The translations under genes and the position numbers were made by a program. A model generated the notes under the pieces. That model saw nothing but the letters and a program-made list of their open reading frames with translations, was not told where the DNA came from and searched no databases. A stretch of 15,164 nt of DNA, taken from IMG/VR virus record IMGVR_UViG_2703718819_000014, positions 1 to 15,164 of that record; one strand, written 5' to 3'. Shown in pieces: positions 1-14,405 of the stretch. This DNA comes from a virus (taxonomy: Duplodnaviria > Heunggongvirae > Uroviricota > Caudoviricetes). Every line of letters begins with the position of its first letter. Within the stretch, counting starts at the first letter, position 1.

Positions 1-1287
1 TCAGCGTCTTGCTCTGTGGGGCATGTATGGGACACTTTCAGCTAACTCCTTATTGAGCAGTTCTATCTGCCCGATATTGTTATCTTTCATCCATGCTCCG
101 TAAACATTGAATACCATCTGAGCGTTTGCGTGCCCCATCTGGTTTGCGATAAAGCTTGGATTCGCTCCTGCGGCCAGTGCCCAGCAGGCATAAGTATGCC
201 TTGACTGATAGGCTTTCCTGTGCCGTAGTCCGGCCCGTCTCAGGGCTGATGCCCATGAATCCCTGATGGAGTCCGCTTTGTAGTGGTAACCGGCTTGCTG
301 GCACTTTTTCACCAGTTGCGGATTAAAGACAAACGTGCATTCATGGCTTACGGTGCGTCCGAACTCCCGCAGTTTGACGTCAATCTGGTATTGAGTGCCA
401 AATCTTGTCATTTCAGCCTGACTTTTCAGGGTTTCAATGGCTGGTTGAACAAGATGAATAACACGATCTGTTCCCGCTTCGGTTTTTGGTAGAGTAAACT
501 CCCCGAGTTTTGTATAATTACGACGGATAGTCATTGTTTTAGCTTTTAAATCAATATCCTCCCAGGCGAGAGATATTAGCTCACCGTGACGGATGCCTGT
601 GTATACTGCTAAAGACCACAGGTTTTTCGTTTGTTGATGGTGGCAAGCATCAATAAAACGAATGAATTCGTCATGCGTGAGCGGATCTGGCTCGGTTCTG
701 GACCTTTTTAATGGTGTCAGGCCGTTAAACGGGTTTGATTCCGTGTAGCCGTTGTCAGCTGCAAATTGAAACATACCTGCAATTGTCGTCATGTAGTAAT
801 TAACTGTAACTACAGATCTCCCCTTAACAGGTGTTGTTTTGCCGTTTGAGAGATTGTGATACCCGGTCAATAAATCTTTCCTGATGAAGAGTAAATCTTC
901 TTTTGTTACAGATGAAGCCAGTCGGCTTTCCCCTATACGAGGCAACATGTTTCTCACCACAGATTGATACCGATTGAATGCGTTACCTCCTATTTCGATT
1001 TTTTTCAGATCCAGCCATTTTTCTGAAAGCGCCTTAATGGTTATCTCCTTTTTTCCCAGACCAAAGTGTTTCAGATTTGGGGACTCAGGAAACTGCGCAG
1101 CGTAGTCGAAATTCCCCATTCTGATTGCAAAACAAACTGAAGTCCTGAGTTCGCCTGCAATCTTCCGGTTTTTGGCTGTGTCAGGAACACCGAGGTTTTC
1201 TCTGACACGTTTGCCGTTATAGTGAAACCATATGCGGAGTGATCCGCCATGGTTTTCAACGCCTGTCGGGTATGATGTGTTACTCAT
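1..1287 (-). CDS. int: Tyrosine-type site-specific recombinase (phage integrase)
   Basis: 428-aa ORF; ATG at 1287-1285 with GGAGG 5 nt upstream; C-terminal region carries the conserved Arg/His/Tyr pattern of lambda-family integrases (RHGE, HxxR, RHTYACW); stop codon sits at the window edge, so attL is not visible. Confidence 0.9.
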   Translation of the reverse strand: MSNTSYPTGVENHGGSLRIWFHYNGKRVRENLGVPDTAKNRKIAGELRTSVCFAIRMGNFDYAAQFPESPNLKHFGLGKKEITIKALSEKWLDLKKIEIGGNAFNRYQSVVRNMLPRIGESRLASSVTKEDLLFIRKDLLTGYHNLSNGKTTPVKGRSVVTVNYYMTTIAGMFQFAADNGYTESNPFNGLTPLKRSRTEPDPLTHDEFIRFIDACHHQQTKNLWSLAVYTGIRHGELISLAWEDIDLKAKTMTIRRNYTKLGEFTLPKTEAGTDRVIHLVQPAIETLKSQAEMTRFGTQYQIDVKLREFGRTVSHECTFVFNPQLVKKCQQAGYHYKADSIRDSWASALRRAGLRHRKAYQSRHTYACWALAAGANPSFIANQMGHANAQMVFNVYGAWMKDNNIGQIELLNKELAESVPYMPHRARR

Positions 1288-1320
1288 TGAACCTCCCAGA
1301 CGTCCAGGAGCATTAACAGG

Positions 1321-1575
1321 TTAACCGGAACTTGCATTTTTGACACCTGGTTGTTTCTGGTTTTCGATCCATCGCATAATTTCTTCGATGTTGTACAGGC
1401 ATTCACTGTAATGCCCTGGATCACCTTCTACAGCGTAATGGCGGTATTCTTTTCCCTGCATCCATGACTTTCTTCTGGCCCGCTCGATGGTGCCAGGCTT
1501 TAGCCCTGTTGATGCAATGAGGACTCTCTCCGTACACCATTTGCTGGGGGTTATCTGATAGATGATTGTCTGCAT
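1321..1575 (-). CDS. xis: Excisionase-like small DNA-binding protein
   Basis: 84-aa ORF immediately upstream of and co-oriented with int (33-bp gap); GAGG RBS; basic, small, with a lambda-Xis-like KDGREY-type segment (QGKEYRHY). Assignment rests mainly on position and size. Confidence 0.6.
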   Translation of the reverse strand: MQTIIYQITPSKWCTERVLIASTGLKPGTIERARRKSWMQGKEYRHYAVEGDPGHYSECLYNIEEIMRWIENQKQPGVKNASSG

Positions 1576-1618
1576 GCCAACCTCATAAAACTTTCATCCA
1601 CGGCAGTGGCACCACACT

Positions 1619-1735
1619 TCAAACATTCGCTTCACATCTTCTGTACAACACGGTGTTGTTTATGCAGCGAACAATTTTTACCGGGTAACCGGCACTGTCG
1701 GTATACAGTTGTCCCTGATTAATCAGAGCGAACAT
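1619..1735 (-). CDS. Hypothetical small protein (38 aa)
   Basis: Internal ATG of track ORF 1619..1858; AGGAG 5 nt upstream of the ATG at 1735; lies just after the stop of the upstream ORF at 1767. No recognisable domain. Confidence 0.3.
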   Translation of the reverse strand: MFALINQGQLYTDSAGYPVKIVRCINNTVLYRRCEANV

Positions 1736-1766
1736 TTTTTCTCCTGCTCTCTGAATAGTGAGAACT

Positions 1767-2150
1767 TCAGAGCCGTATGTTTGTAGCGGGTTCAATGCTG
1801 ATAATTTCTGCTGAGATAAGCATCCCGGCAAGCCAGAGTTCCCCGGACAGGTCTTCATCCTGGCATATCAGTTCGCCAATATTAATGGTGGCCATGATAT
1901 CCGTTTTCCCTGTGCGCTCATCCAGGACTTCTTCATAAGGCAGCGTTGCGTACAGGCTTTCAATAGCGCAATTGATAACATCCAGTCCGGTCAGATTGCC
2001 GCCGACAGTAACTTCGAATGTTTCGCGGTATTCCCATAGTCCGAAAGTTAATCGAACGGTTTGTTTTGCCATGCGTCCGCACGACGTCAGATTCGGGTCA
2101 TAGTTCATTATTTGCGGTTGAGTATTCTGGTTGTTCATCTGATTTTCCAT
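1767..2150 (-). CDS. Hypothetical protein (127 aa), last large gene of the SPFH operon
   Basis: Track ORF 1767..2213; I prefer the ATG at 2150 (MENQMNNQ...) because the GTG at 2213 would overlap the SPFH gene by 35 nt. No recognisable motif. Confidence 0.5.
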   Translation of the reverse strand: MENQMNNQNTQPQIMNYDPNLTSCGRMAKQTVRLTFGLWEYRETFEVTVGGNLTGLDVINCAIESLYATLPYEEVLDERTGKTDIMATINIGELICQDEDLSGELWLAGMLISAEIISIEPATNIRL

Positions 2151-2178
2151 TAACCCGGCGGTTTGCCGGGCGTGTAAG

Positions 2179-3006
2179 TTATTTAATCTGGATAAATGGT
2201 GTATTGGCACCACTGGTCATGTATTGCGGCAGTGTACCGTTCCACTTGTTGATGGCTTCCAGCTCCATGACGCCAGGGTTCTGGCGCAGAGCTTCGCCGC
2301 GTAAACGAATGGCATCGGCTTCTGCCAGGGCTTTTGTTCGAATGGCATCAGCCTGTCCGGCAGCTTCTGCACGCAGCATGTTGGCCTCCGCTTCACGTTG
2401 CTTGACTTCCTGTTCGCGCTGCAGGGTTTTCTGGTTTGCCGTGACTTTGGCGTTAATGCTGTCGATAACGGTTGGCGGGTATTCCGGTTTACCTACATAA
2501 GAGAGGCTCATTACCTGAACGCCGATGGGGGTCATCTCTTCCTGAATGTCTTTAAGTGCGGCATCCAGTAGTTCAGACTTGCCGCCGTCGATAAATTTGT
2601 CGGTGGTCATTTTGCTGGCCAGTCGATTGAGTGCGTCGGCGATCTTCTGGCGCAGGTCAGTGGCGGTAATGTCATCCACGCCTTTGCGGTAGGTCTGAAA
2701 CACCGTGGTAACTTTGGATGGATCAACTTTGTAGGCAACACCGATGTGATAGCCGATGGTTGTGCCGTCACTCATCTGGAAGCTGAACGGCTCATCGTAG
2801 GTCTTCATTTGTTTGAAGGTTGGGAAGATGTAAACTTCAGTATTCCAGCCAGTCCAGTAGCGACCAACACCGACCACCTCACCGACGCCTTTATCGTCGC
2901 CCAGTTTATTTACTTTGATGCCAACATTACCGGGTTCAACGCGATCGCAGCCGACAAGGCCAATGGTCGGCAGAACAATGGCTAAAGCAAAAATAATTTT
3001 TTTCAT
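2179..3006 (-). CDS. SPFH/band-7 (HflK/C, flotillin-like) domain lipoprotein
   Basis: 275-aa ORF; N-terminal signal peptide with lipobox (MKKIIFALAIVLPTIGLVGC); central region of SPFH type; C-terminal Ala/Glu/Arg-rich coiled-coil (QREQEVKQREAEANMLRAEAAGQADAIRTKALAEADAIRLRGEA); AAGGA RBS 6 nt upstream; ATG overlaps the stop of the upstream ORF (ATGA). Confidence 0.8.
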   Translation of the reverse strand: MKKIIFALAIVLPTIGLVGCDRVEPGNVGIKVNKLGDDKGVGEVVGVGRYWTGWNTEVYIFPTFKQMKTYDEPFSFQMSDGTTIGYHIGVAYKVDPSKVTTVFQTYRKGVDDITATDLRQKIADALNRLASKMTTDKFIDGGKSELLDAALKDIQEEMTPIGVQVMSLSYVGKPEYPPTVIDSINAKVTANQKTLQREQEVKQREAEANMLRAEAAGQADAIRTKALAEADAIRLRGEALRQNPGVMELEAINKWNGTLPQYMTSGANTPFIQIK

Positions 3007-3191
3007 TTTTTATCCTTAGTGAAAGAAAGACCCTTGTAAATGGCATAAATGCAGGGCGGGGTCAGAAACGCCAGTGCAAAGCCAGAAGTAACTGCTATCG
3101 TATCCTTCATGGATATAAGGAACGGAACGAGTAATCCGTAAATGCATGCGATAATTGCCAGTAAAATTACTATTGTGAAATACAGTCTCAT
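3003..3191 (-). CDS. Small two-helix membrane protein (62 aa), SPFH partner
   Basis: Two hydrophobic segments (FTIVILLAIIACIYGLLVPFLI and AVTSGFALAFLTPPCIYAIY); stop overlaps the SPFH start codon, implying translational coupling. RBS is weak and the start is uncertain. Confidence 0.5.
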   Translation of the reverse strand: MRLYFTIVILLAIIACIYGLLVPFLISMKDTIAVTSGFALAFLTPPCIYAIYKGLSFTKDKK

Positions 3192-3335
3192 TGGTATGTG
3201 GTATCCCGATATTTTTAACTGACAGACAGCGCAATAAAGAGAATAATGATTTCTGTTATTGTCAGTACTGTGGCAAGGATTAAAAGCAGTTTTACTCTGC
3301 TTAATTCACGGTTGTTTTTCATATAAATGGTTAGT

Positions 3336-3360
3336 AAAAAACGGAAGAATTATATTCTTC
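3336..3360 (-). terminator. Intrinsic terminator ending the 3-ORF cargo cassette
   Basis: On the minus strand: GAAGAAT / 3-nt loop / ATTCTTC hairpin followed by CGTTTTTT, 16 nt after the stop of ORF 3376..3948. AT-rich stem, so moderate strength. Confidence 0.5.
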
Positions 3361-3375
3361 TTAATATTTAATGTG

Positions 3376-3948
3376 TCACTGGCCTTCTGGCATACCATGA
3401 GTATTCAGGTCGTTAATCATTTCATCCAGAAGGAGTTCAAGCCCTTCTCGCCCCATGTCTGAAACAATGAAACCTTTATCTGGGTATGTAATGAGCATTT
3501 TCTGATAAAGAAACAGCGCTCTACCCATTCCTTCTGCCTCGCCGTATTTTTGAATTAAATTCCATTCAATATACTGCTGTAAGGCAAACCGAATGGGGCC
3601 GGGATATATCGTCATAACCCCATGCTTCCCGTTATATATTACGGCGCGATCTGTTGTTCCGTGTTCATTCGGGACATCAATTGTGCCGTTCTTGTCTTCT
3701 TCTTCGTTGATGAATGTCGTCACATACAACCATCGCCACTGGGCAACCTTCATCTCAACCGGAAGTTTTCCCAGTAATCCTGCTTCGTCAGCTTGCGCGA
3801 GACACTGAAGGATACGTAAACCTCGCACATTAGGAGTATCGAATTCTCCAGCATCCAGACGGCGTATGGCGTCGTGATAATCAATAGTCATACTGCCTGT
3901 TTGTATACCATTGGCTGTTGCTTCAGCCTGGAATTCAGCGTATTGCAT
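3376..3948 (-). CDS. Hypothetical protein (190 aa)
   Basis: ORF with ATG at 3948, 5 nt after the stop of the upstream 60-aa ORF (RBS inside that ORF); followed by a terminator. No motif I can name. Confidence 0.6.
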   Translation of the reverse strand: MQYAEFQAEATANGIQTGSMTIDYHDAIRRLDAGEFDTPNVRGLRILQCLAQADEAGLLGKLPVEMKVAQWRWLYVTTFINEEEDKNGTIDVPNEHGTTDRAVIYNGKHGVMTIYPGPIRFALQQYIEWNLIQKYGEAEGMGRALFLYQKMLITYPDKGFIVSDMGREGLELLLDEMINDLNTHGMPEGQ

Positions 3949-3953
3949 GAAAT

Positions 3954-4136
3954 TTATTCCTCATCTTCATCTGCTGGTGCAATAACGTCATATCCTGCCT
4001 TTTCTGCAATAAACAGGAATGTTGAAAGATTTCCTACAAATTCATCGTCATGAACATGACGAATTAATATTACTTTCCCGTTTTTGATGGTCAGCAATAC
4101 TCTGGTTTGTTCGTGTTCTGCTGTTTTCTGATGCAT
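3954..4136 (-). CDS. Hypothetical small protein (60 aa) with acidic C-terminus
   Basis: ATG at 4136 with GGGAG 7 nt upstream; C-terminus ...APADEDEE; tightly coupled to the 190-aa ORF downstream. Confidence 0.5.
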   Translation of the reverse strand: MHQKTAEHEQTRVLLTIKNGKVILIRHVHDDEFVGNLSTFLFIAEKAGYDVIAPADEDEE

Positions 4137-4540
4137 TATTATCTCCCGTATGCTTTACGCAGAAACAAGCAGGCAATATGCATGTAATTTTCACCGTGTT
4201 GTGCAATAAGACAGGCTGTTTTGTGTGATGCCTTATGTTTTATAAAAGTCATAATAAAGCCTCCAGTGGATTAAGTGTGTGATAATCCCCGGCTATTAAG
4301 CCGTAATATATTATTCGCAGATGACTTGTTTTATTTAACTGGATAGTTCTGTTTCGGCTGCTGCTTCAGCATAGCAACGTGCAAATTCAAGAACTTCATC
4401 ACCTGTTCTTTTTATTGCATCGTTGTCTTACATTTGTAATACGACAACTGCGCATAATAAATCATGGATATTGTTTGCAAAGGAATCCGGTGCCAGGCAT
4501 AAGCCTTCATACTTATCATGGATATTGCCAGTCATTGTTG

Positions 4541-5233
4541 CTACTCCTTTGCTTCTGATTTTCCCGTTAACAACCACACCAGGTCACAATTAAGCGCACT
4601 GGCCAGTGGTACTATCTGATCAGCAGGAACTTCACAGATGCCGCATTCCCAGTCGTTTATGGGGTCACTATAGGTATGAATCATGCGGGCAAGATCAGAT
4701 TCGGTTAATCCCAGTTTTGTACGGGCGCTTTTGATGCGTGCGCCAATACTTTCCACATGGACTTCAGGCACATTTACGCGAATAACTGACTCGCTGTTTT
4801 TTTCACTCAGCAGAGAAAGCGGATCGCATCCCAGGACGTTTGCCAGGGGGATAAGCATGCTGATGGTTGGCTCGTACTCTCCACTCTCCCATTGCAGAAT
4901 AATCTCTTCGTCAAGATCGAGTAGTCTGGCTAGTTCGGTAGTCGTCAAGCCGCAGGCTTCACGTTTTGTGCGTATGCAGGCTATCTTGTTGCCTGAGCGA
5001 ATAGAATGTTGTTGTTTTGTCGATGCGATCGCTAAAGCATATTCATGAGTAAATTCCAGCACATCAAACCCAACCTCTTTTAATCGCGTATCATCCAGGA
5101 GGTTGAAGGTGCGAACAGCACTGAGCAGGTTTGCGATGGTTAATGCAAAAGAATCGAGGTCTAAATCATCACATAAAACCTTGTTGTAAGTATTGAGGCT
5201 ACATGTTTTTGGTGTTGTTTGTAAGGCTTCCAT
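4541..5233 (-). CDS. Tandem-HTH (two XRE-type helix-turn-helix domains) DNA-binding protein
   Basis: Two consecutive XRE-like HTH segments (...GLTTTELARLLDLDEEIILQWESGEYEPTISMLIPLANVLGCDP... and ...GLTESDLARMIHTYSDPINDWECGICEVPADQIVPLASALNCDLVWLL...) after an ~85-aa N-terminal region of unknown type. First in-frame codon at 5269 is TTG; the ATG at 5233 is preferred. Directly downstream of and co-oriented with the cI-like gene. Confidence 0.7.
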   Translation of the reverse strand: MEALQTTPKTCSLNTYNKVLCDDLDLDSFALTIANLLSAVRTFNLLDDTRLKEVGFDVLEFTHEYALAIASTKQQHSIRSGNKIACIRTKREACGLTTTELARLLDLDEEIILQWESGEYEPTISMLIPLANVLGCDPLSLLSEKNSESVIRVNVPEVHVESIGARIKSARTKLGLTESDLARMIHTYSDPINDWECGICEVPADQIVPLASALNCDLVWLLTGKSEAKE

Positions 5234-5315
5234 ATCATCACCATGCAATTCTAAGTTGAAGTTAATCAATATATAATTGATGGTGAGATATTATGTGTCA
5301 GGTAAACTAGTGTCA

Positions 5316-5340
5316 ATCAAAAATTGATAAACTTGATTTT
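5316..5340. promoter_or_regulatory. Operator-like palindrome plus an 11-mer shared with the cI/cro intergenic region
   Basis: Perfect 13-bp palindrome ATCAAAAATTGAT (5316-5328), immediately followed by AACTTGATTTT (5330-5340), which recurs exactly at 6108-6118. Lies between the cI stop and the tandem-HTH gene start. Confidence 0.35.
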
Positions 5341-5380
5341 TTTGTAGTGGGTGACAAATAATTTAATTTAAAATCAACAA

Positions 5381-6070
5381 CTAACCAAATCTGTTGATAT
5401 TGAATGGTACAGATGAGATGACTTTTGACTGGATATACAGCAGCGCCATTCCCTCTTTTTCGATGCTCCACGGCTGATAGTTGGGATTGTCTGATAAGAC
5501 CATGATCTTGCTTCCAATTTTTTGAAGTCGTTTGACGTAACATTCGCCATCAAAGCAAAATGCATAAATGCCATCACCGTCAAAATAAGTTACTGTTTTA
5601 TCTAAAAACAGTAAGTCACCTGGGGCGATTGTTGGGGCCATGCTGTCCCCTCTGGCGTTACCGATTTCTATGTTCTTGAATGCTCTGTTACCGACCAGGC
5701 GGCGGGCATATTCAGGATCAAGTTCTATTGAGCGTACTACATCAATTAGATCTCCCCGTACATGAGTTCCGTCGCCGCAGCTGAATTCAACATCCAGCAC
5801 ATTGAACACAACGCTGTCTTCTCTTGTATGGTGTTTTTCAGCTGAAGAGTGTGTCGATGAGGTATCTTCACCCAAAAACCAGGATTGTGGATAACCACTA
5901 ATTACTGATAGTTGTGCAAGTTTATCGCTTCTGGGAAACGTCTTTCCTGTAGTCCAGTATTGTACTGATTGTGCGCTTACACCCAGCTTACGGGCTAGTT
6001 CAGCCTGACTCCAGCCTTTTGTTTTCAGCATCATTGCTATCCGATTTTCTGTGCTTTTTACATTCTTCAT
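5381..6070 (-). CDS. CI-like prophage repressor (HTH + S24 LexA-type autopeptidase)
   Basis: N-terminal XRE HTH (GWSQAELARKLGVSAQSVQYWTTGKTFP); C-terminal S24 signature with Ser in GDSMAPTI and Lys in CYVKRLQK; divergent from a cro-like gene across a 130-bp repeat-rich region. Start chosen at M11 of the track ORF (MKNVK...). Confidence 0.85.
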   Translation of the reverse strand: MKNVKSTENRIAMMLKTKGWSQAELARKLGVSAQSVQYWTTGKTFPRSDKLAQLSVISGYPQSWFLGEDTSSTHSSAEKHHTREDSVVFNVLDVEFSCGDGTHVRGDLIDVVRSIELDPEYARRLVGNRAFKNIEIGNARGDSMAPTIAPGDLLFLDKTVTYFDGDGIYAFCFDGECYVKRLQKIGSKIMVLSDNPNYQPWSIEKEGMALLYIQSKVISSVPFNINRFG

Positions 6071-6100
6071 GGTGAGTTCCTGTCGAGGCTTTATACACAT

Positions 6101-6202
6101 AAATATTAACTTGATTTTAGTGTATTCGATCCTTTTGAAACTTGCATGTTAATTTATTCTTGATGTATTCTTGATTTGTAAAGTTAATGTTGGAGCTGTG
6201 CT
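6101..6202. promoter_or_regulatory. Divergent immunity promoter/operator region (PRM/PR-like)
   Basis: AT-rich intergenic region between divergent repressor genes. Contains tandem direct repeats TATTCTTGAT (6155-6164, 6166-6175), a degenerate copy GTATTCGAT (6122-6130), and AACTTGATTTT (6108-6118); all share a TTGAT core. Individual -35/-10 hexamers were not confidently assigned. Confidence 0.5.
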
Positions 6203-6460
6203 GTGATAAAACTGAATGATTACGACATGTTGCGTAAATTGATTCCTCAAAACGCCATAGCAAGATACATCGGTGTTACGCCACAAGCGGTGAACCTGTG
6301 GTTTTCTAAAAACTCCGTTCCTTCTCGTTTTGTTTTACGGGTGTGTGAGTTAGTTGAATGGAAGGTTACTCCGCATGGGTTAAGACCTGATCTATACCCT
6401 TATCCCGAAGATGGAATTCCTGATTCGTTACGAAAATCAAACGGTATTACCAGAGATTAA
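6203..6460 (+). CDS. Cro/YdaS-like small HTH regulator
   Basis: 85-aa ORF divergent from cI-like gene; GTG start with GGAG 6 nt upstream; HTH segment IARYIGVTPQAVNLWFSKNSVP resembles the Rac YdaS/Cro-type fold. Confidence 0.7.
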   Translation: MIKLNDYDMLRKLIPQNAIARYIGVTPQAVNLWFSKNSVPSRFVLRVCELVEWKVTPHGLRPDLYPYPEDGIPDSLRKSNGITRD

Positions 6461-6541
6461 AGACTGACTGTCACGAGTAGTAACTCACGATGCATACGTT
6501 TTGGCGTGAGTTCTGAAATGTCATCCTCAAGGAGCAATCAG

Positions 6542-7249
6542 ATGAATACCGCAATTTTTACCGATAAAGCATCCATGACCAGCGTTGAAATCGCAGAGCT
6601 GGTGGGCAGCCGCCATGACAAAGTGAAACAATCCATTGAGCGCCTTGCTGAACGAGGGATTATTCAGCTTCCCCCAATGGGGATTTCTGAAAATATCAAT
6701 GGGTTAGGTTTAACTCAAAAAAGTAAGCATTATCTTTTCGAAGGTGAACGAGGCAAGCGCGACAGCATCATTGTTGTCGCACAGCTTTGCCCTGAATTCA
6801 CCGCCCGCCTGGTAGATCGCTGGCGCGAACTGGAAGAACAAATCCGTAAACCAATGAGCCAGATCGAAATGGTTGCTGCAATGGCACTTGAAGCCGTTCG
6901 CCAACAAAGACGTCTTGAGCAGGTGGAAGAGAAAGTCAGCCACGTTACCGAAACAGTCGAGCAAATCAAAAGAGGCACCATACGTGATGGTTATGCAGGT
7001 TACCGTCAGCTGGTGGCGAAAACGGGTATGTCAGATGCGAAATGCCGCAATCTGGTGAACGCATATCAGATCCCTACCGATACCCATGAATTTATGACGC
7101 CGGATGGATTGTTGTCTCGTCGCGCGATTGTTGCAGTAGAACCCTTCATGTCTGCTTTTCATCGAATGATGAGTGAAGCAGAACCACGAGGTGCACGCTG
7201 GTATCACCCGAAAATGGGGCTGTTCCAGGCGCTGGGCTGGCAGGTGTAA
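6542..7249 (+). CDS. Rha-family phage regulatory protein (antirepressor-like), paralog 1
   Basis: AAGGAG 6 nt upstream of ATG at 6542; N-terminal region (MTSVEIAELVGSRHDKVKQSIERLAERGII ... YLFEGERGKRDSIIVVAQL) matches the Rha/ORF6N-type pattern. Confidence 0.7.
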   Translation: MNTAIFTDKASMTSVEIAELVGSRHDKVKQSIERLAERGIIQLPPMGISENINGLGLTQKSKHYLFEGERGKRDSIIVVAQLCPEFTARLVDRWRELEEQIRKPMSQIEMVAAMALEAVRQQRRLEQVEEKVSHVTETVEQIKRGTIRDGYAGYRQLVAKTGMSDAKCRNLVNAYQIPTDTHEFMTPDGLLSRRAIVAVEPFMSAFHRMMSEAEPRGARWYHPKMGLFQALGWQV

Positions 7250-7268
7250 TTATGCTCACAGGTAGCAC

Positions 7269-7448
7269 ATGCAAGTACTCAATCGCTGGTTCCGTGATGG
7301 AAGGGGGCGTCGCGTCCACGTTATACGCTGGGAGCCTGAAACACAGCGCGTTATCTATCTTCGCAAAGACTACCCGCATGAGTGCTTTAGTCCTTTGTGG
7401 AAATTCAGGCGTGATTTTGTTGAGTGTGAAGGAACACCAGCATATTGA
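7269..7448 (+). CDS. Small basic hypothetical protein (59 aa), not in the ORF track
   Basis: ATG at 7269 in a different frame from track ORF 7252..8277; translation MQVLNRWFRDGRGRRVHVIRWEPETQRVIYLRKDYPHECFSPLWKFRRDFVECEGTPAY looks protein-like (balanced composition, Trp/Cys spacing); just below the 60-aa threshold. Confidence 0.4.
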   Translation: MQVLNRWFRDGRGRRVHVIRWEPETQRVIYLRKDYPHECFSPLWKFRRDFVECEGTPAY

Positions 7449-7725
7449 TTCTGCAATTCCGGGACGTTACACTGTTCCGGCACCTTATAAAGCGGGTGCC
7501 GGGCGTGGAAACCCGAAATTCAATATAGAGCACAACCGCGCTCATGCGGTTTTTTCGTGTCATGAGCATCGTTACGCCCAAATTATGGTGGGGCGTGCAG
7601 GGCCAACTTCGGTTGGGCCGGGTTCTATGTTGACCGGTATTTCCACCCCTGTACGTCTCACCACCTATATGGTCGTGGAAAGCCTTGGTGGTGAGTTCAT
7701 TGAATTCAACATAGGGGCTGTCACC

Positions 7726-8277
7726 ATGACTACTCTCCCAACCCAATCTCACCCTGAAATCACGATTATCAATGGTCGCGTTGTCACCACATCTCTTGCA
7801 GTAGCTAATTACTTTACTAAACGGCATGAGCGGGTTTTAGATAGAATTAGAAACCTCGAATGTTCCGCTGAATTTACTGAACACAATTTTGTGTTAAGTG
7901 AATACACCGACGCATCAGGCCGCAAACTCCCTTGTTACCAAATCACCCGCGACGGTTTTGCATTTCTTGCTATGGGTTTCACGGGTAAACGTGCTGCCCG
8001 GTTCAAAGAAGCATACATCAATGCCTTTAACCAGATGGAGAGGTGCTTATCAGGAGTTGGTGCGGCTGATATGCCATCTGTCGCACAAAACGCCAGAGGC
8101 GTATACCTGCATTTGCGAGAAATCCACCAAATCTGGACAAGCCAGCTTTATCCCATGCTTAAGGCTGTTGAATCTCCGCTGGCTAGCAAACTGTACGACC
8201 GTGTAGGTGATGCTGTTTTTGGTGCTGCACTTGTTGATTCCAGACTGAACGGTTCTGACAAGGAGGCGCACCCATGA
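7726..8277 (+). CDS. Rha-family phage regulatory protein, paralog 2
   Basis: Internal ATG of track ORF 7252..8277; from MTTLPTQSHPEITIINGRVVTTSLAVANYFTKRHERVLDRIRNL ... YQITRDGFAFLAMGFTGKRAARFKEAYINAFNQME follows the Rha-domain pattern. The upstream 474 nt of the long ORF lacks coding signals. Confidence 0.7.
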   Translation: MTTLPTQSHPEITIINGRVVTTSLAVANYFTKRHERVLDRIRNLECSAEFTEHNFVLSEYTDASGRKLPCYQITRDGFAFLAMGFTGKRAARFKEAYINAFNQMERCLSGVGAADMPSVAQNARGVYLHLREIHQIWTSQLYPMLKAVESPLASKLYDRVGDAVFGAALVDSRLNGSDKEAHP

Positions 8278-8507
8278 TTCGCCGCGTCGTTAGTTCCCTG
8301 TATCACCGATACAACCACTGCCCCCGTGTGGGGCAGTGGTTCACCACCAGCAACGGTCACGTTCTGCGGGTTTGCCTGGTCAATACAGAAAGCCAGAAGG
8401 TTGTCTGCCAGGTTCAGGGATGTACTCATACCCTGAGTTATCCGCTGGTGGCGTTTCAGTCCGGAAAAATGTTTAAACGCCTGGGAGGTGGCTATGCGTC
8501 CGTCTGA
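8274..8507 (+). CDS. Small Cys-containing hypothetical protein (77 aa)
   Basis: AAGGAGG 7 nt upstream; ATG overlaps the stop of Rha paralog 2 (ATGA); four Cys at positions 16, 34, 45, 50; 3' end overlaps the replication-initiator start. Confidence 0.5.
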   Translation: MIRRVVSSLYHRYNHCPRVGQWFTTSNGHVLRVCLVNTESQKVVCQVQGCTHTLSYPLVAFQSGKMFKRLGGGYASV

Positions 8508-9387
8508 TCTTCTGCTCGATTTTGGACATCCGGTTGCTTATTACCCTGGGCTCGTTAAATACATGGGAAGTCCGCACGCTGTTATTTTCTTTGGTCAGAT
8601 TTTTTACTGGCAGGATAAAGCACATGCAGCGGAAGGCGTACATAAAACGCGTGAAGAGATACAACACGAAACAGGACTTACATTTGAACAACAGGCTGTA
8701 GCGCGTAAGCATCTTGTGTCCAGAGGCATTTTGGTTGAAACCAACAAGCGTCTTGAGCACAAAATGTTCTACCGTATAGATTGTGAGCGCCTTAATGAAA
8801 TTATCAATGAAAACAATCAGTTTTCCCGAAATGGGGAAACCCGTTTTCGGGAAACTGTAAAACCCAATTTCGCGGAGGAGGGAAAGCCTTCACCGCGGGC
8901 ACGGGAAACCCCTCGCCGCGGAGAAGGGAAAACCAATTTCGATCTTACAGAGAATACAACAGAGATTACTTCAGAGAATACTACAGAGAGTAAAAACACT
9001 ATTGGCGCATCCGCTGACGCGTCTGCACCAGCACGTTCTGCCCGACAGGAATATTCACCGGAATTTGAACAGGCCTGGCAGGAATATCCCAAACGTGCTG
9101 GTGGTAATTCCAAGTCAGCTGCTTTCAAAGCCTGGAAAGCCCGTATCAGGGAAGGTGTGACACCCGAAATCATGCTCAACGGTGTGAAACGCTATGCCGC
9201 CTGGGTGCGTGTCTCAGGAAATATCGGTACCCAGTTCGTGAAGCAGGCGTCGACGTTCTTTGGCCCCGATCGGCACTTTGACGAATTCTGGCAACAGCCA
9301 GCAGCCCCCGGAGGTGGGCGGGGCAAAAGCCTCCCAATCTCGGGATTCAGTGAACAGGATTACGGCTCAACGAACTTCAACTGGTGA
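8494..9387 (+). CDS. Replication initiator / replisome-organiser protein (lambda O / Rac YdaU-like)
   Basis: GGGAGG 5 nt upstream of ATG 8494; coding sequence contains iteron-like repeats; basic C-terminal segment EFEQAWQEYPKRAGGNSKSAAFKAWKARIREGV; immediately upstream of the DnaC-like and DnaB-like genes. Confidence 0.65.
   Translation: MRPSDLLLDFGHPVAYYPGLVKYMGSPHAVIFFGQIFYWQDKAHAAEGVHKTREEIQHETGLTFEQQAVARKHLVSRGILVETNKRLEHKMFYRIDCERLNEIINENNQFSRNGETRFRETVKPNFAEEGKPSPRARETPRRGEGKTNFDLTENTTEITSENTTESKNTIGASADASAPARSARQEYSPEFEQAWQEYPKRAGGNSKSAAFKAWKARIREGVTPEIMLNGVKRYAAWVRVSGNIGTQFVKQASTFFGPDRHFDEFWQQPAAPGGGRGKSLPISGFSEQDYGSTNFNW
8833..8992. repeat. ori-like iteron array inside the initiator gene
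   Basis: Five copies of GGGAAA(A)CC-type repeats at about 8833, 8848, 8880, 8903 and 8926, followed by four tandem ~12-bp ACAGAGA(A/T)TAC units (8947-8992). Matches the lambdoid layout of iterons plus an adjacent repetitive tract inside the O gene. Confidence 0.5.
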
Positions 9388-9406
9388 TTTTGTGGGGAGG
9401 GTGAAA

Positions 9407-10297
9407 ATGACTAATTTCCTGAACAAACAACACATGCAACACGACAAAGCGCAGTTACTTAACCGCAAGGCAGACTTGGAAGAGGAGCTGGCATTTGTCC
9501 GTGGCGGAAAGCGTCCGTGGCGCTGTGAGCATTGGGTGCAAAGCACTGAGACGGTGTCCTGCGGGAAACACGGAAAATACACGCGCTATGTGCTGACGGG
9601 CCCGGATGTAAGGGGGAAAGCTGTCAAACGGGTGTCCGGTTGCCTGTCCTGCCTCAGTGAGGAGCTGGACCGCGTGTATGACGAATTACGCGCCCTGAAG
9701 GTTCGTGAATTACTCGATCAGGCCGGTATTGCCCGCCGGTTCCAGGACTGTGAGTTTGAGAATTATCAGGCGGTGAATACTGACGCACAGAAAAACCTTG
9801 AAGCCTGTCAGCGCTATGCCGCTTCCTGGAAGAAATGTCTCGCTGCAGGCACCAGCATGGTCATGATTGGCAATTGTGGTACCGGGAAAAATCACCTGGC
9901 TGTATCAATGGCAAAAAATATTATTCGCCACCACCAGGCAACCATAGAAATCACGGATGTGATGCGGCTTACCCGTGCGGTGAAAAATACCTGGCGCCAC
10001 AACTCTGAGCGCACTGACGATGAAGTGATTAATCATTTTGCATCGCTGGATCTGCTTATCATCGATGAGGTTGGTGTGCAGTTCGGTACGCCTGCGGAGA
10101 TAACCATCCTGCAGGAAATCATAAATGCACGTTACGAAAGCGTTTTACCGACAATTTTGATCAGCAACCTGACGTTTGAACAGCTTAAGGAATCCATTGG
10201 TGAACGGATTGTGGATCGCGTTACTGATGGTGGGCGTAACTGCCTGGTGTTTGGTTGGGAAAGCTACCGTGCGCATATCAGAGGTGTGGCAGCATGA
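9407..10297 (+). CDS. DnaC/IstB-like AAA+ helicase loader with N-terminal Cys cluster
   Basis: GGAGG 6 nt upstream of ATG 9407; Walker A GNCGTGKNHLA, Walker B LLIIDEVG; N-terminal CEHW...SCGKHG...GCLSC zinc-finger-like cluster. Confidence 0.85.
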   Translation: MTNFLNKQHMQHDKAQLLNRKADLEEELAFVRGGKRPWRCEHWVQSTETVSCGKHGKYTRYVLTGPDVRGKAVKRVSGCLSCLSEELDRVYDELRALKVRELLDQAGIARRFQDCEFENYQAVNTDAQKNLEACQRYAASWKKCLAAGTSMVMIGNCGTGKNHLAVSMAKNIIRHHQATIEITDVMRLTRAVKNTWRHNSERTDDEVINHFASLDLLIIDEVGVQFGTPAEITILQEIINARYESVLPTILISNLTFEQLKESIGERIVDRVTDGGRNCLVFGWESYRAHIRGVAA

Positions 10298-11948: not shown

Positions 11949-11999
11949 TGGCTGAATTTTTTCTCCTGCGTTCATGCAATACCGTTCGCTGAGGTGACC

Positions 12000-12989
12000 G
12001 TGAGAGCACTGCTGACCCCTGAAATTGCCCCGCGTATGGGGATCGTCTTGTTCAGACCCGGTTCAGAGCTGATGCCCCTGTTTATGCAGGGGCGTGTCCT
12101 GCTGGAGCCTGAGCCGGAACGTTATTCATCTTTTGCCAGTGGTGCCGTTCCGGCAGCATCACAACCGCTGGCGGATGATCCTGCCGTTCGGGCCGTGTTC
12201 CGCCATGAGGCGGTGATCCGTCGTGCTGGTGGCGTGGAATGCCTTGAGAGCTGGTTACTTCGTGAAAAAGGCTGCCAGTGGCCTCATTCCGGATGGCACA
12301 GCGAGAACATGACCACAATGCGACACGCGCCGGGCGCAATCCGTCTGTGCTGGCACTGCGATAACCTGCTTCGCGATCAGTTCACGGAACGTCTGGAGTC
12401 AATGGCAACGGATAACTGTGCCCGCTGGGTGTTGTCCGTAGTCCGTCGTGATCTCGGTTTTGATGACAGTCACGTTGTGACAATGCCTGAACTGTGCTGG
12501 TGGCTGGTTCGTAATGACCTGGCGGATGCCTTACCGGAAAGTGCAGCCCGTAAGGCCCTGAGATTACCGAAGCCTGTTTTGCCGTCTGTCACCCGGGAGA
12601 GTGACCTTGTGCCTTCGGTTCCTGCCACCAGCATTATCCAGGATAAAGCGAAAAAGGTGCTGGCGCTGAAAGTGGATCCGGAGTCGCCGGAGTCTTTTAT
12701 GTTACGCCCCAAACGTCGTCGCTGGGTTAATGAAAAGTACACGCGCTGGGTTAAGACGCAGCCGTGTGCATGTTGTGGTAAGCCAGCCGACGATCCGCAT
12801 CACCTGATTGGTCATGGTCAGGGTGGAATGGGTACAAAAGCGCATGACCTTTTTGTGTTGCCTTTGTGCAGAAAACACCATGACGAACTGCATGCGGATA
12901 CCGTGGCATTTGAAGAGAAGTATGGTTCCCAACTGGAGCTGATATTTCGTTTTATCGATCGCGCGCTGGCGATTGGTGTGCTGTCCTGA
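12000..12989 (+). CDS. DUF968-like (Qin YdfU-type) protein with C-terminal Cys/His motif
   Basis: C-terminal CACCGKPADDPHHLIGHGQGGMGTKAHDLFVLPLCRKHHDELH resembles the DUF968 / HNH-like metal-binding pattern found beside Q in Qin-type prophages. Start uncertain: GTG at 11994 or 12000 (GAGG 5 nt upstream), or ATG at 12036. Confidence 0.6.
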   Translation: MRALLTPEIAPRMGIVLFRPGSELMPLFMQGRVLLEPEPERYSSFASGAVPAASQPLADDPAVRAVFRHEAVIRRAGGVECLESWLLREKGCQWPHSGWHSENMTTMRHAPGAIRLCWHCDNLLRDQFTERLESMATDNCARWVLSVVRRDLGFDDSHVVTMPELCWWLVRNDLADALPESAARKALRLPKPVLPSVTRESDLVPSVPATSIIQDKAKKVLALKVDPESPESFMLRPKRRRWVNEKYTRWVKTQPCACCGKPADDPHHLIGHGQGGMGTKAHDLFVLPLCRKHHDELHADTVAFEEKYGSQLELIFRFIDRALAIGVLS

Positions 12990-13006
12990 TTTTGTGGAGA
13001 AAGTTG

Positions 13007-13399
13007 ATGCGTGATATTCAGATGGTTCTCGAACGCTGGGGGGCATGGGCGGCAAGTGGTAACGCCGGGGTGGACTATTCTCCGATAGCTGCTGGATTTA
13101 AAGGCCTTTTACCATCCACCGCTAAACCTCGCCCGGCCTGCAGCGATGATGACGGCCTTATCATCGAAAACTGCCTTACGCGCCTGAAGAAGAAAAAACC
13201 GGACGAGTATTCGCTGCTGGTAGCTCATTATCTGCTGCGCATATCAAAAAGGCAGATTGCCAGAACAAGAAAGAAGAGCGAAAAGGCAATACGAATTGAG
13301 ATGCAGATTGCTGAAGGATTTATTGACGGATGTCTGTCGATGCTGGGTGTAAGGCTGGAGATGGACGACTGGCTGCCCAAAAAAGTAAAAAATGATTAG
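13007..13399 (+). CDS. Late-gene antiterminator, Q family (phage-82/P22 gp23 type)
   Basis: 130 aa; N-terminus MRDIQMVLERWGAWAA and ...AAGFKGL...C.DDD...RLKKK.PDEY.LL..YY match the Phage_antitermQ-type pattern; GGAG RBS. Coordinates taken from the ORF track. Confidence 0.75.
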   Translation: MRDIQMVLERWGAWAASGNAGVDYSPIAAGFKGLLPSTAKPRPACSDDDGLIIENCLTRLKKKKPDEYSLLVAHYLLRISKRQIARTRKKSEKAIRIEMQIAEGFIDGCLSMLGVRLEMDDWLPKKVKND

Positions 13400-13481: not shown

Positions 13482-13600
13482 ATGACTGAAATCGCATCAG
13501 TACAGTAAACGTGCTGGTGGTGAATACCTGTCTTTCAGCTTGCTGGCTTTTTAGACAAGAGTTATTGGTATGTCACGTTAACCGGAAAAGGGAAAAAGAC

Positions 13601-13798
13601 ATGCTAAAACAGCAGGATATGACAGAAACCGCCAGAGTGGTGTTTAATGAATTAAGCGTCACCTACCCGGCGACAGTCGGGGAGATTGCGCAGAATACTT
13701 ACCTTTCACGCGAACGCTGCCAGTTAATACTGACCCAGCTGGTTATGGCGGGTCTGGCAGACTATCAGTTCGGTTGTTACAGACGCCTTCCGCAGTGA
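13601..13798 (+). CDS. Small putative winged-helix DNA-binding protein (65 aa)
   Basis: Internal ATG of track ORF 13511..13798 with AGGGA upstream; size and pattern (VGEIAQNTYLSRERCQLILTQLVMAGL) resemble small PapI/FaeA-type regulators; followed directly by a terminator. Weak assignment. Confidence 0.45.
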   Translation: MLKQQDMTETARVVFNELSVTYPATVGEIAQNTYLSRERCQLILTQLVMAGLADYQFGCYRRLPQ

Positions 13799-13812
13799 AG
13801 GCTTTTTTATTT
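13785..13812 (+). terminator. Intrinsic terminator
   Basis: GCCTTC / CGCAGT / GAAGGC hairpin overlapping the stop of the small ORF, followed by TTTTTTATTT. Confidence 0.65.
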
Positions 13813-13922
13813 GTGGTAAATGGGCGGCTGGTGGGTGTGGTGGTTGTTGCTTTCCCGTTGCTGAAAAAGAAAGCATCAGGCGATTAGCAGGGTATCAGTT
13901 ACCCGTTGAAATTTTTAAATAC

Positions 13923-14152
13923 CTCACAATTCAGGCGGTTGACTGTTGTCTGGTTTGCGGGGAGTTTGTTAAAAGAAACTGGCATGGTGAATCCCCCTGT
14001 GCGGAGGGGCAATCAGCAACTGGTGTTTTGTCACCGACCCTTATCCTTTCTGTGCGGGTTCAGGTGCTGATACTGAACTCACCGGGAGGCACCCGGCACC
14101 ATGCAATGGCACATAGCGCCACTCTCCAGCCCCTCTCCGGAGGGGCTTTTCT
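13923..14152 (+). ncRNA. Candidate structured sRNA module, copy 1 (includes its terminator 14129-14152)
   Basis: Conserved blocks shared with copy 2 at identical spacing: CTCACAATTCAG, TTGACn (+16), TTTGTTAAAA (+42), GCATGGTGAATCCCCCTGnGCGGAGGGGC (+59), CTGAACTCACCGGGAGGCACCCGGCACCATG, then hairpin GCCCCTC/TCCG/GAGGGGC + TTTT. The 5' GCATGGTG can pair with 3' CACCATGC, closing a 123-nt domain. Confidence 0.4.
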
Positions 14153-14368: not shown

Positions 14369-14405
14369 ACTGCAGAAAACAGGTTCCCCGTTAAATGCTA
14401 TGTTG

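What the first reader, a model, noticed from the sequence alone, without database searches (positions are those of the whole stretch)
1576..5380. Early-left arm lacks N and all recombination genes and is filled with cargo
Between xis and cI (3.8 kb) there is no Arg-rich N-like ORF and no exo/bet/erf/gam-like ORF; all seven ORFs are unassigned cargo. Together with the presence of Q, this suggests early antitermination is absent or handled differently. It also suggests this arm is a hotspot for accessory gene exchange in this prophage lineage.
Basis: inference. Interest (0 to 1): 0.45.

Follow-up and report, generated by a model that had tools for sequence, protein, structure and literature searches.

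The report
N-less early-left arm of Eru7-type prophage
The stretch between xis and cI really has no N antiterminator and no recombination genes, but this is the normal, already sequenced layout of a widespread family of E. coli prophages (Eru7-type / phiP27-like Shiga-toxin phages), so it is ordinary rather than strange.

Summary
The absence is real. No ORF in 1576-5380, in the rest of the window, or in a complete related prophage matches N, Exo, Bet/RecT, Erf, Gam, cIII, NinB or NinG; lambda controls were detected. boxA-like sites are at chance level and no Arg-rich ORF exists.

The arm is not a set of seven orphans. It holds nine reading frames:
- a tandem-HTH regulator at the N position, behind a strong PL-like promoter;
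- its 66-aa paralogue, knocked out here by a nonsense codon;
- a conserved 37-aa gene;
- orf60 and orf190;
- a 62-aa membrane protein and an SPFH lipoprotein;
- DUF5406;
- a truncated DUF4222.

Positions 1300-4100 are about 100% identical to published long-tailed Stx2 phages. The representative of replication type Eru7 (LC567818.1) is among the top hits, and relatives are MMC-inducible and lysogenise K-12.

The leftward strand has no strong intrinsic terminator (lambda has eight by the same scan) and is 86% coding. The simplest reading is N-independent early transcription, with Q the only processive antiterminator. That step is inferred.

The middle cassettes do differ among same-lineage prophages, so the "exchange hotspot" idea holds. 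Verdict: a new member of a known kind, low interest.

The parts
1..1287 (-). Tyrosine integrase (428 aa), a diverged allele of the yecE-type IntR
   Evidence: ORF list. It is 94% aa identical to the integrases of Stx2/Stx1 long-tailed phages. Nucleotide identity is only 83-92% per 100-nt block. The best match in 5,426 complete E. coli genomes is 93.9%.
1321..1575 (-). Excisionase (84 aa)
   Evidence: Pfam DUF1233 E=2e-29; phrog_539 excisionase E=2.5e-37.
1619..1735 (-). DUF4222 remnant (38 aa, SD AGGAG). It is the N-terminal half of a ~78-aa gene, joined to the 3' end of a 44-aa ORF by a ~230-bp deletion.
   Evidence: phrog_285 positions 1-34 of 83. Alignment with the Stx1a phage L004 shows the gap. 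RefSeq marks the same remnant as a pseudogene in relatives.
1767..2138 (-). DUF5406 protein (123 aa), function unknown
   Evidence: Pfam PF17400 E=4e-22; phrog_3409. The family is spread over Gammaproteobacteria. The AF2 model has pLDDT 84 and an alpha/beta fold, with no PDB match at E<0.001.
2179..3006 (-). SPFH/Band-7 lipoprotein (275 aa, signal plus lipobox ...LVGC)
   Evidence: Pfam Band_7 E=1.2e-30; phrog_200 'lipoprotein' E=1e-112. Weak, sub-threshold HflC/HflK similarity. The same gene at 86-92% nt identity sits in P1-type phage-plasmids (next to the DnaB-type helicase gene) and in P88.
3003..3191 (-). 62-aa membrane protein, overlapping the start of the SPFH gene by 4 nt
   Evidence: phrog_1130 'membrane protein' (moron category) E=7e-23. 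It travels with the SPFH gene in relatives.
3336..3360 (-). Weak AT-rich hairpin (GAAGAAU-AUA-AUUCUUC) followed by a run of six U. It is the only terminator-like element on the leftward transcript, and lies in the 184-nt AT-rich spacer 3192-3375.
   Evidence: Sequence and RNA fold. It falls below the scan threshold, with 2 G-C pairs.
3376..3948 (-). orf190 (190 aa), function unknown
   Evidence: phrog_1515 E=2e-92. Homologues are reported only from Escherichia, all 'hypothetical'. The AF2 model has pLDDT 88.7 and pTM 0.84. No PDB or BFVD match at E<0.001, TM below 0.3.
3954..4136 (-). orf60 (60 aa), function unknown. The cassette breakpoint lies exactly at its start codon.
   Evidence: phrog_340 E=2e-21, plus weak similarity to C-terminal parts of anti-repressor families. 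The breakpoint at 4136 is seen against L006 and L008.
4139..4252 (-). orf37: 37-aa basic protein with SD GGAGG, present in all nine relatives compared
   Evidence: tblastn matrix. There are 13 synonymous against 7 mostly conservative replacements versus phiP27, counted from alignment A1. No PHROG or NCBIfam family.
4268..4303 (-). Two small conserved hairpins upstream of orf37. Neither is followed by a T-run.
   Evidence: RNA fold z=-2.4. The alignment fold shows only one-sided changes and 0 compensatory pairs.
4335..4535 (-). orf66, a paralogue of the N-terminal domain of the tandem-HTH protein. Here it is interrupted by an in-frame TAA at 4428-4430 (Ser in relatives).
   Evidence: Translations. 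phrog_4587 E=6e-36. BLASTP against HTH2 residues 27-70: 48% identity, E=4e-9.
4541..5233 (-). HTH2: 230-aa regulator. It has an immunity-specific N-terminal domain (~1-86) and two Cro/C1-type HTH domains. It is the first gene of the leftward operon, the position N has in lambda.
   Evidence: Pfam HTH_3 with two stretches, E=3e-16; phrog_4836 'CII-like regulator' E=6e-92. The second HTH resembles the 434 and P22 C2 repressor DNA-binding domains. The C-terminal 144 aa are 90% identical to the Stx1a-phage protein, while the N-terminal part is unrelated.
5265..5346 (-). PL-like promoter (TTGACA 5316-5311, 17-nt spacer, TAATAT 5293-5288). Flanking TTGAT dyads: ATCAAT-N5-ATTGAT at 5265-5281 over the predicted start, and ATCAA-N3-TTGAT at 5316-5328 next to the -35. 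The 11-mer AACTTGATTTT (5330-5340) is shared with the cI-cro spacer.
   Evidence: Promoter scan, 10 of 12 matches. Repeats. The 11-mer occurs only at 5330 and 6108 in the window. The dyad is unique, 0.06 expected.
5381..6100 (-). cI-type repressor (HTH plus peptidase S24)
   Evidence: Pfam Peptidase_S24 E=4e-17 and HTH_3; phrog_4.
6203..6460 (+). Cro-like regulator, first gene of the rightward operon
   Evidence: Pfam YdaS_toxin/HTH; phrog_35.
12992..13399 (+). Q antiterminator, the only recognisable antitermination factor in the window
   Evidence: Pfam Phage_antitermQ E=3e-52.

Best explanation
Positions 1576-5380 are the leftward early (PL) operon of an Eru7-type / phiP27-like lambdoid prophage of E. 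coli, here in an stx-negative copy.

It has three layers.
1. An immunity-proximal regulatory block. It holds a strong sigma-70 promoter just downstream of cI, flanked by TTGAT dyads that also occur in the cI-cro spacer. Behind it lie a tandem-HTH DNA-binding regulator whose N-terminal domain is swapped together with cI, a small paralogue of that domain (inactivated here), and a conserved 37-aa gene.
2. A run of exchangeable accessory cassettes: orf60 with orf190, a 62-aa membrane protein with an SPFH lipoprotein, and DUF5406.
3. A small deletion scar (the DUF4222 remnant), followed by xis and int.

The lineage carries no N/nut system and no Red, RecET, Erf or Gam genes.

Early transcription most likely needs no processive antiterminator.
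- The leftward transcript is 86% coding.
- It has no strong hairpin-plus-T terminator and no C-rich/G-poor stretch.
- On the right, only two genes lie between the helicase gene and Q, like a natural 'nin deletion'.

Q at PR' is then the only antitermination step. Recombination and concatemer formation are left to host functions.

Shown: the gene content, the absences, the promoter and repeat sequences, and the cassette variation. Inferred: that cI controls the promoter, that transcription runs from it through to int, and that no antitermination is required.
For: Absence with positive controls: searches give no N or recombination family. (tblastn with lambda proteins) gives nothing below E=0.1 in the window or in the complete relative L003. 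In one search the same library detects lambda N, Exo, Bet, Gam and cIII. PGAP annotation of the whole 45-kb relative lists no recombinase and no N; the alternative cassette of Stx1a phages also has none.

No nut: boxA at chance level; no Arg-rich ORF.

Terminators: the minus strand 1288-5288 has no site with 4 or more G-C pairs. In one search the same scan finds eight such sites on lambda's leftward strand between PL and int, and the strong site between ren and ninB on the right; 86% coding and no rut-like bubble.

Promoter and operators.

Lineage: searches show about 100% identity over 1300-4100 to long-tailed Stx2 phages. LC567818.1, one of the three top-scoring phage hits, is the Eru7 representative (PMC8951638).

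Relatives are functional: they lysogenise K-12 and are MMC-inducible (bioRxiv 10.1101/2024.03.06.583675).

Cassette variation.
Against: - Rho-dependent terminators cannot be predicted reliably, and lambda tR1 and tL1 are of that kind.
- A weak AT-rich hairpin with a U-run follows orf190 (3336-3360).
- The IsrK terminator (7534-7551) lies in the rightward path to the replication genes and Q. Some read-through mechanism is needed there. In Gifsy-1 part of the transcripts read through it without a dedicated factor (PMC4825925).
- No transcript data exist for this window.
- N proteins are short, disordered and extremely divergent, so sequence and fold searches cannot fully exclude an unrecognisable analogue.
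- The window's own prophage beyond 15164 was not seen. Absence of recombinases elsewhere rests on one relative (L003).
Confidence: 0.7

Rival explanations
1. One of the uncharacterised early-left proteins (the tandem-HTH protein at the N position, orf37, orf60 or orf190) is a new kind of early antiterminator or anti-Rho factor that functionally replaces N.
For: HTH2 occupies the first position of the leftward operon. orf37 is small, basic and conserved in all relatives. orf190 has a confident model with no known fold. The IsrK terminator at 7534-7551 must be passed on the way to Q.
Against: - HTH2 has two canonical DNA-binding Cro/C1 domains similar to those of 434 and P22 repressors, not an RNA-binding arginine-rich motif.
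- There is no boxA or nut.
- There are no strong terminators to override on the left.
- orf60 and orf190 are missing from several relatives that share the same framework, so they cannot be essential early regulators.
- Read-through of the IsrK terminator is documented without such a factor (PMC4825925).
Confidence: 0.1
2. Antitermination is RNA-based, like the put elements of HK022: a structured nascent RNA downstream of PL and PR modifies RNA polymerase without a phage protein.
For: Two small conserved hairpins lie upstream of orf37 (4268-4303, z=-2.4). Structured RNAs (IsrK, C4) lie in the rightward operon.
Against: - The Rfam scan with permissive thresholds found nothing in 1576-6500.
- The PL leader is only about 48 nt and the cro-Rha spacer about 45 nt, too short for a two-stem put-like element.
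- The orf66-orf37 spacer shows 0 compensatory pairs and a covariation term of -0.36.
- The hairpins are 4-6 bp.
- HK022 put sequences themselves were not compared.
Confidence: 0.05
3. The arm is a decayed remnant: this prophage is defective and has lost N and the recombination module by deletion.
For: There are signs of decay. The DUF4222 gene is truncated by a ~230-bp deletion. orf66 carries a nonsense codon. The region after Q lacks the methylase, tRNA and stx genes of its relatives.
Against: - The same gene order without N or recombinases is present in phiP27, in 60 complete E. coli genomes and in Stx2a phages that are inducible and lysogenise K-12.
- Relatives with intact DUF4222 and the 44-48-aa ORF still have no N or recombinase.
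- The deletion scar accounts for only about 0.23 kb.
Confidence: 0.07

Closest known systems
Eru7-type / long-tailed (G-IV) Stx2 phages, e.g. Stx2a-converting phage Stx2_14040 (LC567818.1) and Stx2_95 (LC567838.1)
   Same: Same gene order from xis to Q. Window 1300-4100 is about 100% identical and 4100-7200 is 93-100% identical. Shared genes: S24 cI, Cro, Rha, O-like, DnaC-like, DnaB, DUF968 and Q. LC567818.1 is the named representative of Eru7 (PMC8951638).
   Different: - The integrase allele is diverged (83-92% nt per block).
- There is no DNA methylase, tRNA or stx after Q; STnc100-like repeats follow directly.
- orf66 is inactivated.
- The Ash/Rha gene is of another type (39-49% aa identity to most relatives, 95% to L010).
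Stx2e phage phiP27 (NC_003356)
   Same: Same left-arm plan: int, xis, DUF4222, DUF5406, SPFH lipoprotein, 62-aa protein, orf190 homologue, orf60 homologue, orf37, orf66-like ORF, HTH gene, cI. 72% of the arm aligns at 87% nt identity. No N or recombination gene is annotated.
   Different: The int/xis type differs (76% and 51% aa). cI and Cro are different. The HTH protein is shorter (138 aa). Q is only 58% identical.
Phage lambda early-left operon (N-nutL, cIII, kil, gam, bet, exo, xis, int)
   Same: Same position and orientation between cI and xis-int. A strong promoter reads away from cI, with operator-like repeats shared with the cI-cro spacer. Accessory genes are mixed with regulators. Q is used for late genes.
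   Different: No N, nut, cIII, kil, gam, bet or exo. There is no rex-like gene between cI and PL. There are no strong leftward terminators, where lambda has eight by the same scan. The first gene is a DNA-binding tandem-HTH protein.
Eru1-type Stx phages (TL-2011c)
   Same: A published precedent for Stx phages that keep cI, Cro and Q but lack homologues of N, CII and CIII (PMC8044961).
   Different: Different replication genes (SF2 helicase, Toprim primase), a different repressor, and short-tailed virions.
Lambda nin5-type N-independent variants (own knowledge, not tested here)
   Same: Removing the terminators between P and Q makes Q expression independent of N. Here only two genes (85 aa and DUF968) separate the helicase gene from Q, and no strong terminator is predicted there.
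   Different: This is a natural architecture, not a laboratory deletion. The IsrK/C4 module with its terminator lies upstream.

Membership tests
Lambda-type N/nut early antitermination | Small protein with an N-terminal arginine-rich motif, encoded as the first gene of the PL operon | tested here: not met
   The first gene is a 230-aa tandem-HTH protein. A six-frame scan found no plausible ORF with 5 or more Arg in 16 aa in 1576-5380.
Lambda-type N/nut early antitermination | Sequence membership in an N family | tested here: not met
   No hit in PHROGs, Pfam or NCBIfam for any ORF. tblastn with lambda N: E=1.9. Control: lambda N hits phrog_271 at 9e-24. N families are very divergent, so this is not absolute.
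Lambda-type N/nut early antitermination | nut sites (boxA plus boxB hairpin) shortly downstream of PL and PR | tested here: not met
   YGCTCTTWA with 1 mismatch: 9 hits against 9.8 expected, none exact and none in the PL or PR leaders. boxB-type hairpins with a GNRA-like pentaloop were not seen in the leaders.
Lambda-type N/nut early antitermination | Terminators inside the early operons that must be overridden | tested here: not met
   There are 0 leftward sites with 4 or more G-C pairs in 1288-5288, against 8 in lambda. Rightward there is one, the IsrK terminator at 7534-7551. Rho-dependent sites are not testable beyond a crude C/G scan.
Phage homologous-recombination modules (Red Exo/Bet/Gam, RecET, Erf, Sak) | A single-strand annealing protein, with or without a partner exonuclease or Gam | tested here: not met
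   - No family hit for any ORF in the window.
- tblastn with Exo, Bet, Gam, NinB and NinG was negative in the window and in the complete relative L003.
- PGAP annotation of L003 lists none.
- The orf190 and DUF5406 models match no solved recombinase or Gam fold.
- The only nuclease-like gene is the DUF968/HNH gene at 11994-12989.
Eru7-type Stx-phage early region (Fagerlund et al. 2022) | Rha-family gene next to cI/cro, followed by O-like, DnaC-like and DnaB-type replication genes and Q, with close identity to LC567818.1 | tested here: met
   Pfam Phage_pRha, IstB-like ATPase, DnaB_C and antitermQ. 95.7% identity over 91% of the window to LC567818.1. The Eru7 representative is named in PMC8951638.
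Eru7-type Stx-phage early region (Fagerlund et al. 2022) | Carries stx downstream of Q | tested here: not met
   There are no tRNA genes. The window jumps from the ORF after Q to sequence that in relatives lies downstream of stxB. The window therefore holds an stx-negative relative, at least up to 15164.
HK022-type put RNA antitermination | Two-stem-loop RNA elements just downstream of PL and PR | tested here: inconclusive
   No Rfam hit. The leaders are too short. There is no covariation in the one conserved spacer. No direct comparison with HK022 put sequences was made.
Q-type late antitermination | Q protein family member followed by a promoter-proximal region with terminators | tested here: met
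   PF06530 E=3e-52. Four strong terminator-like sites at 13785-14749 and STnc100/AsxR RNAs lie downstream.

The most novel reading that the evidence does not exclude
The block next to cI (the tandem-HTH protein at the N position, its small paralogue orf66 and the universally conserved 37-aa protein) is an uncharacterised early regulatory module. In Eru7-type phages it would take over the decisions that N, CII and CIII make in lambda. That would explain why induction efficiency and Stx2 output differ between otherwise similar long-tailed Stx2a phages when the 2.9-kb cI-containing segment is swapped.
Probability: 0.2. Interest if true: 0.5.

Novelty: new member of a known kind. Interest (0 to 1): 0.22.

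Why it matters
As a finding it mostly closes a question: the missing N and recombination genes are a lineage trait of a sequenced and widespread group of prophages, not an anomaly.

It still has some value. Eru7-type phages are reported as the most widespread Eru type among European Stx phages (PMC8951638). Their induction efficiency sets Stx2 production (bioRxiv 10.1101/2024.03.06.583675). Nobody has described how their early operons are transcribed, or what the tandem-HTH gene at the N position does.

The map given here supplies concrete targets for that work: the PL promoter, the dyads, the domain-swap boundary inside the HTH gene, the conserved 37-aa gene and the cassette breakpoints.

Tried and rejected
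1. Divergent N among small ORFs. All leftward ORFs of 20 aa or more, and ten alternative-frame ORFs, were scanned with nothing found.

3. Anti-phage defence role for the cassettes. PADLOC gave no hit except generic HTH similarity for HTH2.

4. Structured RNA in the orf66-orf37 spacer. There was no covariation.

5. A large deletion next to xis. The scar is only about 230 bp.

6. Identifying the source organism through the diverged int. There was no match at 95% or better in complete E. coli genomes. An exact 50-mer was absent from species-representative genomes.

7. The phiP27 genome paper (PMC127862) is not held, so what its authors said about N could not be checked.

8. The operator consensus could not be fixed. 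TTGAT-containing repeats are shared by the two regulatory regions, but the regions are AT-rich and the statistics are modest: the 11-mer occurs twice or more in 20 of 200 shuffles.

Full report
**What is at the coordinates.**

The window is the int-to-Q half of a lambdoid prophage of E. coli type. On the minus strand it reads int (1-1287), xis (1321-1575), then the interval in question, then an S24/HTH cI repressor (5381-6100). On the plus strand come cro (6203-6460), a Rha gene, an Ash/Rha gene, O-like, DnaC-like and DnaB-type replication genes, an 85-aa ORF, a DUF968/HNH gene and Q (12992-13399).

The interval 1576-5380 holds nine leftward reading frames, not seven:
- a 38-aa DUF4222 remnant (1619-1735);
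- DUF5406 (1767-2138);
- an SPFH lipoprotein (2179-3006);
- a 62-aa membrane protein (3003-3191);
- orf190 (3376-3948);
- orf60 (3954-4136);
- a 37-aa ORF (4139-4252);
- a 66-aa ORF cut by an in-frame TAA (4335-4535);
- a 230-aa tandem-HTH protein (4541-5233; the mechanical TTG start at 5269 is replaced by the ATG at 5233, where the PHROG match begins).

**Is the absence real?**

Yes.
- No ORF of the interval, and none in the rest of the window, hits an N, exonuclease, Bet/RecT, Erf, Gam, cIII, NinB or NinG family in Pfam, PHROGs or NCBIfam. PADLOC likewise gave no hit for the seven largest left-arm ORFs except generic HTH similarity.
- tblastn with the lambda proteins themselves gave nothing below E=0.1, either in the window or in a complete 45-kb relative, the yecE prophage of O55:H7 USDA5905 (L003).
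- The PGAP annotation of that relative names no recombinase and no N anywhere.
- As a positive control, the same PHROG library recognises lambda N (phrog_271, 9e-24), Exo, Bet, Gam and cIII.
- A six-frame scan for arginine-rich stretches found none in a plausible ORF of the arm.
- boxA-like words are at chance level, 9 found against 9.8 expected, and none sits in a leader.
- An Rfam scan at permissive threshold found no RNA family in 1576-6500.
- orf190 and DUF5406, the two sizeable unknowns, gave confident AlphaFold models (pLDDT 88.7 and 84.1). Neither matches any solved structure, and orf190 matches no viral predicted structure. Nothing suggests a hidden annealing protein or Gam.

**Which phage is this?**

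The arm is not peculiar to this prophage.
- Window 1300-4100 is about 100% identical, and 4100-7200 is 93-100% identical, to long-tailed Stx2a/Stx2d phages integrated at yecE or in the ompW prophage.
- The whole arm is present in 60 of 5,426 complete E. coli genomes, and parts of it in about 1,000.
- Stx2e phage phiP27 has the same plan at 87% identity.
- The same phages are the 'G-IV long-tailed Stx2a phages' of Nakamura et al. These lysogenise K-12 and are induced by mitomycin C with CI-type-dependent efficiency (bioRxiv 10.1101/2024.03.06.583675; PMC11333237).
- A precedent for Stx phages without N, CII and CIII is published for Eru1 (PMC8044961).

The window's copy differs in three ways. 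Its integrase allele is diverged. It lacks the methylase, tRNA and stx genes after Q. Its orf66 has a nonsense codon.

**How the arm is built.**

Immediately downstream of cI there is a strong leftward promoter, TTGACA-17-TAATAT (5316-5288, 10 of 12 matches). Three repeat features surround it:
- A perfect dyad ATCAAT-N5-ATTGAT (5265-5281) covers the predicted start. It is unique in the window, with 0.06 expected.
- A second dyad (5316-5328) abuts the -35.
- The 11-mer AACTTGATTTT occurs only here (5330) and in the cI-cro spacer (6108).

This is what a repressor-controlled PL would look like. Which protein binds is not shown.

The first gene, at the place N has in lambda, encodes two Cro/C1-type HTH domains. 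The second resembles the 434 and P22 C2 DNA-binding domains. An approximately 86-residue N-terminal domain precedes them.

Against a Stx1a phage with a different cI, the C-terminal 144 residues are 90% identical and the N-terminal domain is unrelated. So the immunity cassette boundary runs through this gene, near 4965. orf66 is a paralogue of that N-terminal domain (48% identity, E=4e-9).

The 37-aa gene has a good Shine-Dalgarno sequence and is present in all nine relatives examined. Against phiP27 it shows 13 synonymous and 7 mostly conservative changes, so it is a real gene.

To the left of its stop codon, exactly at 4136, the sequence stops being shared with some relatives.

**Cassette exchange.**

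Nine relatives share the framework int-xis-DUF4222 ... orf37-(orf66)-HTH-cI. Between those anchors they carry at least six different gene sets:
- the window's set;
- a set of eight small ORFs plus a MarR-like gene (Stx1a phages);
- sets with a ParE-like gene;
- sets with an ORF6N protein;
- sets with Ea22-like, DUF551 and DUF4752 genes;
- others.

None contains N or a recombinase.

Single cassettes also occur elsewhere. The SPFH gene is in P1-type phage-plasmids and P88, and the orf190/orf60 pair is in ST131 prophages.

Within the Stx2 sub-lineage, however, the arm is nearly invariant. The remnant of DUF4222 next to xis is a 230-bp deletion scar shared with those phages, not the trace of a lost module.

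**How early transcription most likely works.**

With the same scan, lambda's leftward strand between PL and int shows eight hairpin-plus-T sites with 4 or more G-C pairs. It also shows the strong site between ren and ninB on the right.

The window's leftward strand between 5288 and 1288 shows none.
- The only terminator-like element is a weak AT-rich hairpin with a U-run after orf190 (3336-3360).
- The transcript would be 86% coding and has no C-rich/G-poor 78-nt stretch.

On the right, only two genes separate the helicase gene from Q. The only site with 4 or more G-C pairs before Q is the IsrK terminator at 7534-7551. For this terminator, partial read-through without a dedicated factor is documented in Gifsy-1 (PMC4825925).

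The most economical explanation is that these phages do not need N-type antitermination and rely on Q alone. This is an inference from sequence. Rho-dependent termination cannot be excluded, and no transcript data were available.

**Rivals.**

- A cryptic protein antiterminator among the unknowns (0.1) is disfavoured. orf60 and orf190 are dispensable in relatives, the first gene is a DNA-binding protein, and there is nothing obvious to antiterminate.
- A put-like RNA (0.05) finds no room in the short leaders and no covariation.
- Decay of a defective prophage (0.07) is contradicted by the same layout in functional phages.

**Verdict.**

It is the standard early-left operon of a known and common phage type, here in an stx-negative copy with a new integrase allele.

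What remains open, and modestly interesting, is the function of the tandem-HTH/orf66/orf37 block that sits where lambda has N.

Noticed in passing
window 7467-7668 (+), inside ORF 7252-8277: IsrK (61.6 bits) and C4 antisense RNA (82.4 bits), with a weak a1/b1 target match, lie in the rightward operon: a P1 immI-like antirepressor control module. The Pfam 'Phage_ASH' domain of the overlapping 341-aa Ash/Rha ORF (residues 73-169, i.e. 7468-7758) coincides with these RNA genes. The Ash 'domain' may therefore be dual-coding, or partly a translation of conserved RNA genes.
   Followed up: partly
window 13511-15164: After Q and a 95-aa ORF there are no methylase, tRNA or stx genes. Instead there are two full STnc100 copies and a weak, sub-threshold third, plus AsxR (63 bits, at its gathering score; an overlapping AgvB match is below threshold) and four strong terminators. 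This sequence lies downstream of stxB in relatives, so the window holds an stx-negative version of a Stx-phage backbone.
   Followed up: partly
window 4428-4430: An in-frame TAA replaces a Ser codon of the 66-aa ORF that is intact in all close relatives. The ORF is a paralogue of the N-terminal domain of the neighbouring tandem-HTH regulator.
   Followed up: yes
window 4139-4252 (-): This 37-aa basic ORF is the most widely conserved element of the arm (50-100% aa identity in nine relatives) and shows purifying selection. It has no PHROG or NCBIfam family and is not annotated in the RefSeq relatives.
   Followed up: partly
window 1-1287: The integrase allele has no match above 93.9% nt identity in 5,426 complete E. 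coli genomes, while the DNA right next to it is about 100% identical to known phages. An exact 50-mer from it is absent from the species-representative genome set. The attachment site and host remain unknown.
   Followed up: partly
window 3376-3948 (-): orf190 gives a confident AlphaFold model (pLDDT 88.7, pTM 0.84) with no match in PDB or BFVD (best E 0.09, TM below 0.3). Its family is reported only from Escherichia. It may be an undescribed fold.
   Followed up: partly
window 1619-1735 (-), 7269-7448 (+), 8274-8507 (+): DUF4222-related small ORFs (phrog_285, phrog_1343, phrog_1153) occur three times, on both arms and at module borders. They might serve as homology patches for cassette exchange.
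   Followed up: no
window 2179-3191 (-): The SPFH lipoprotein shows weak, sub-threshold similarity to HflC/HflK, the modulators of FtsH that set lambda CII stability in the host. A phage-borne copy next to lysogeny genes is suggestive but untested. The same gene sits next to the DnaB-type helicase gene in P1-type phage-plasmids.
   Followed up: no
window 9260-10297 (+): The DnaC-like loader is 97% identical to that of one O145:H28 Stx2a phage but only 52% identical to those of the other relatives. The flanking O-like and DnaB genes stay at 91-99%, so this is a single-gene swap inside the replication module.
   Followed up: no
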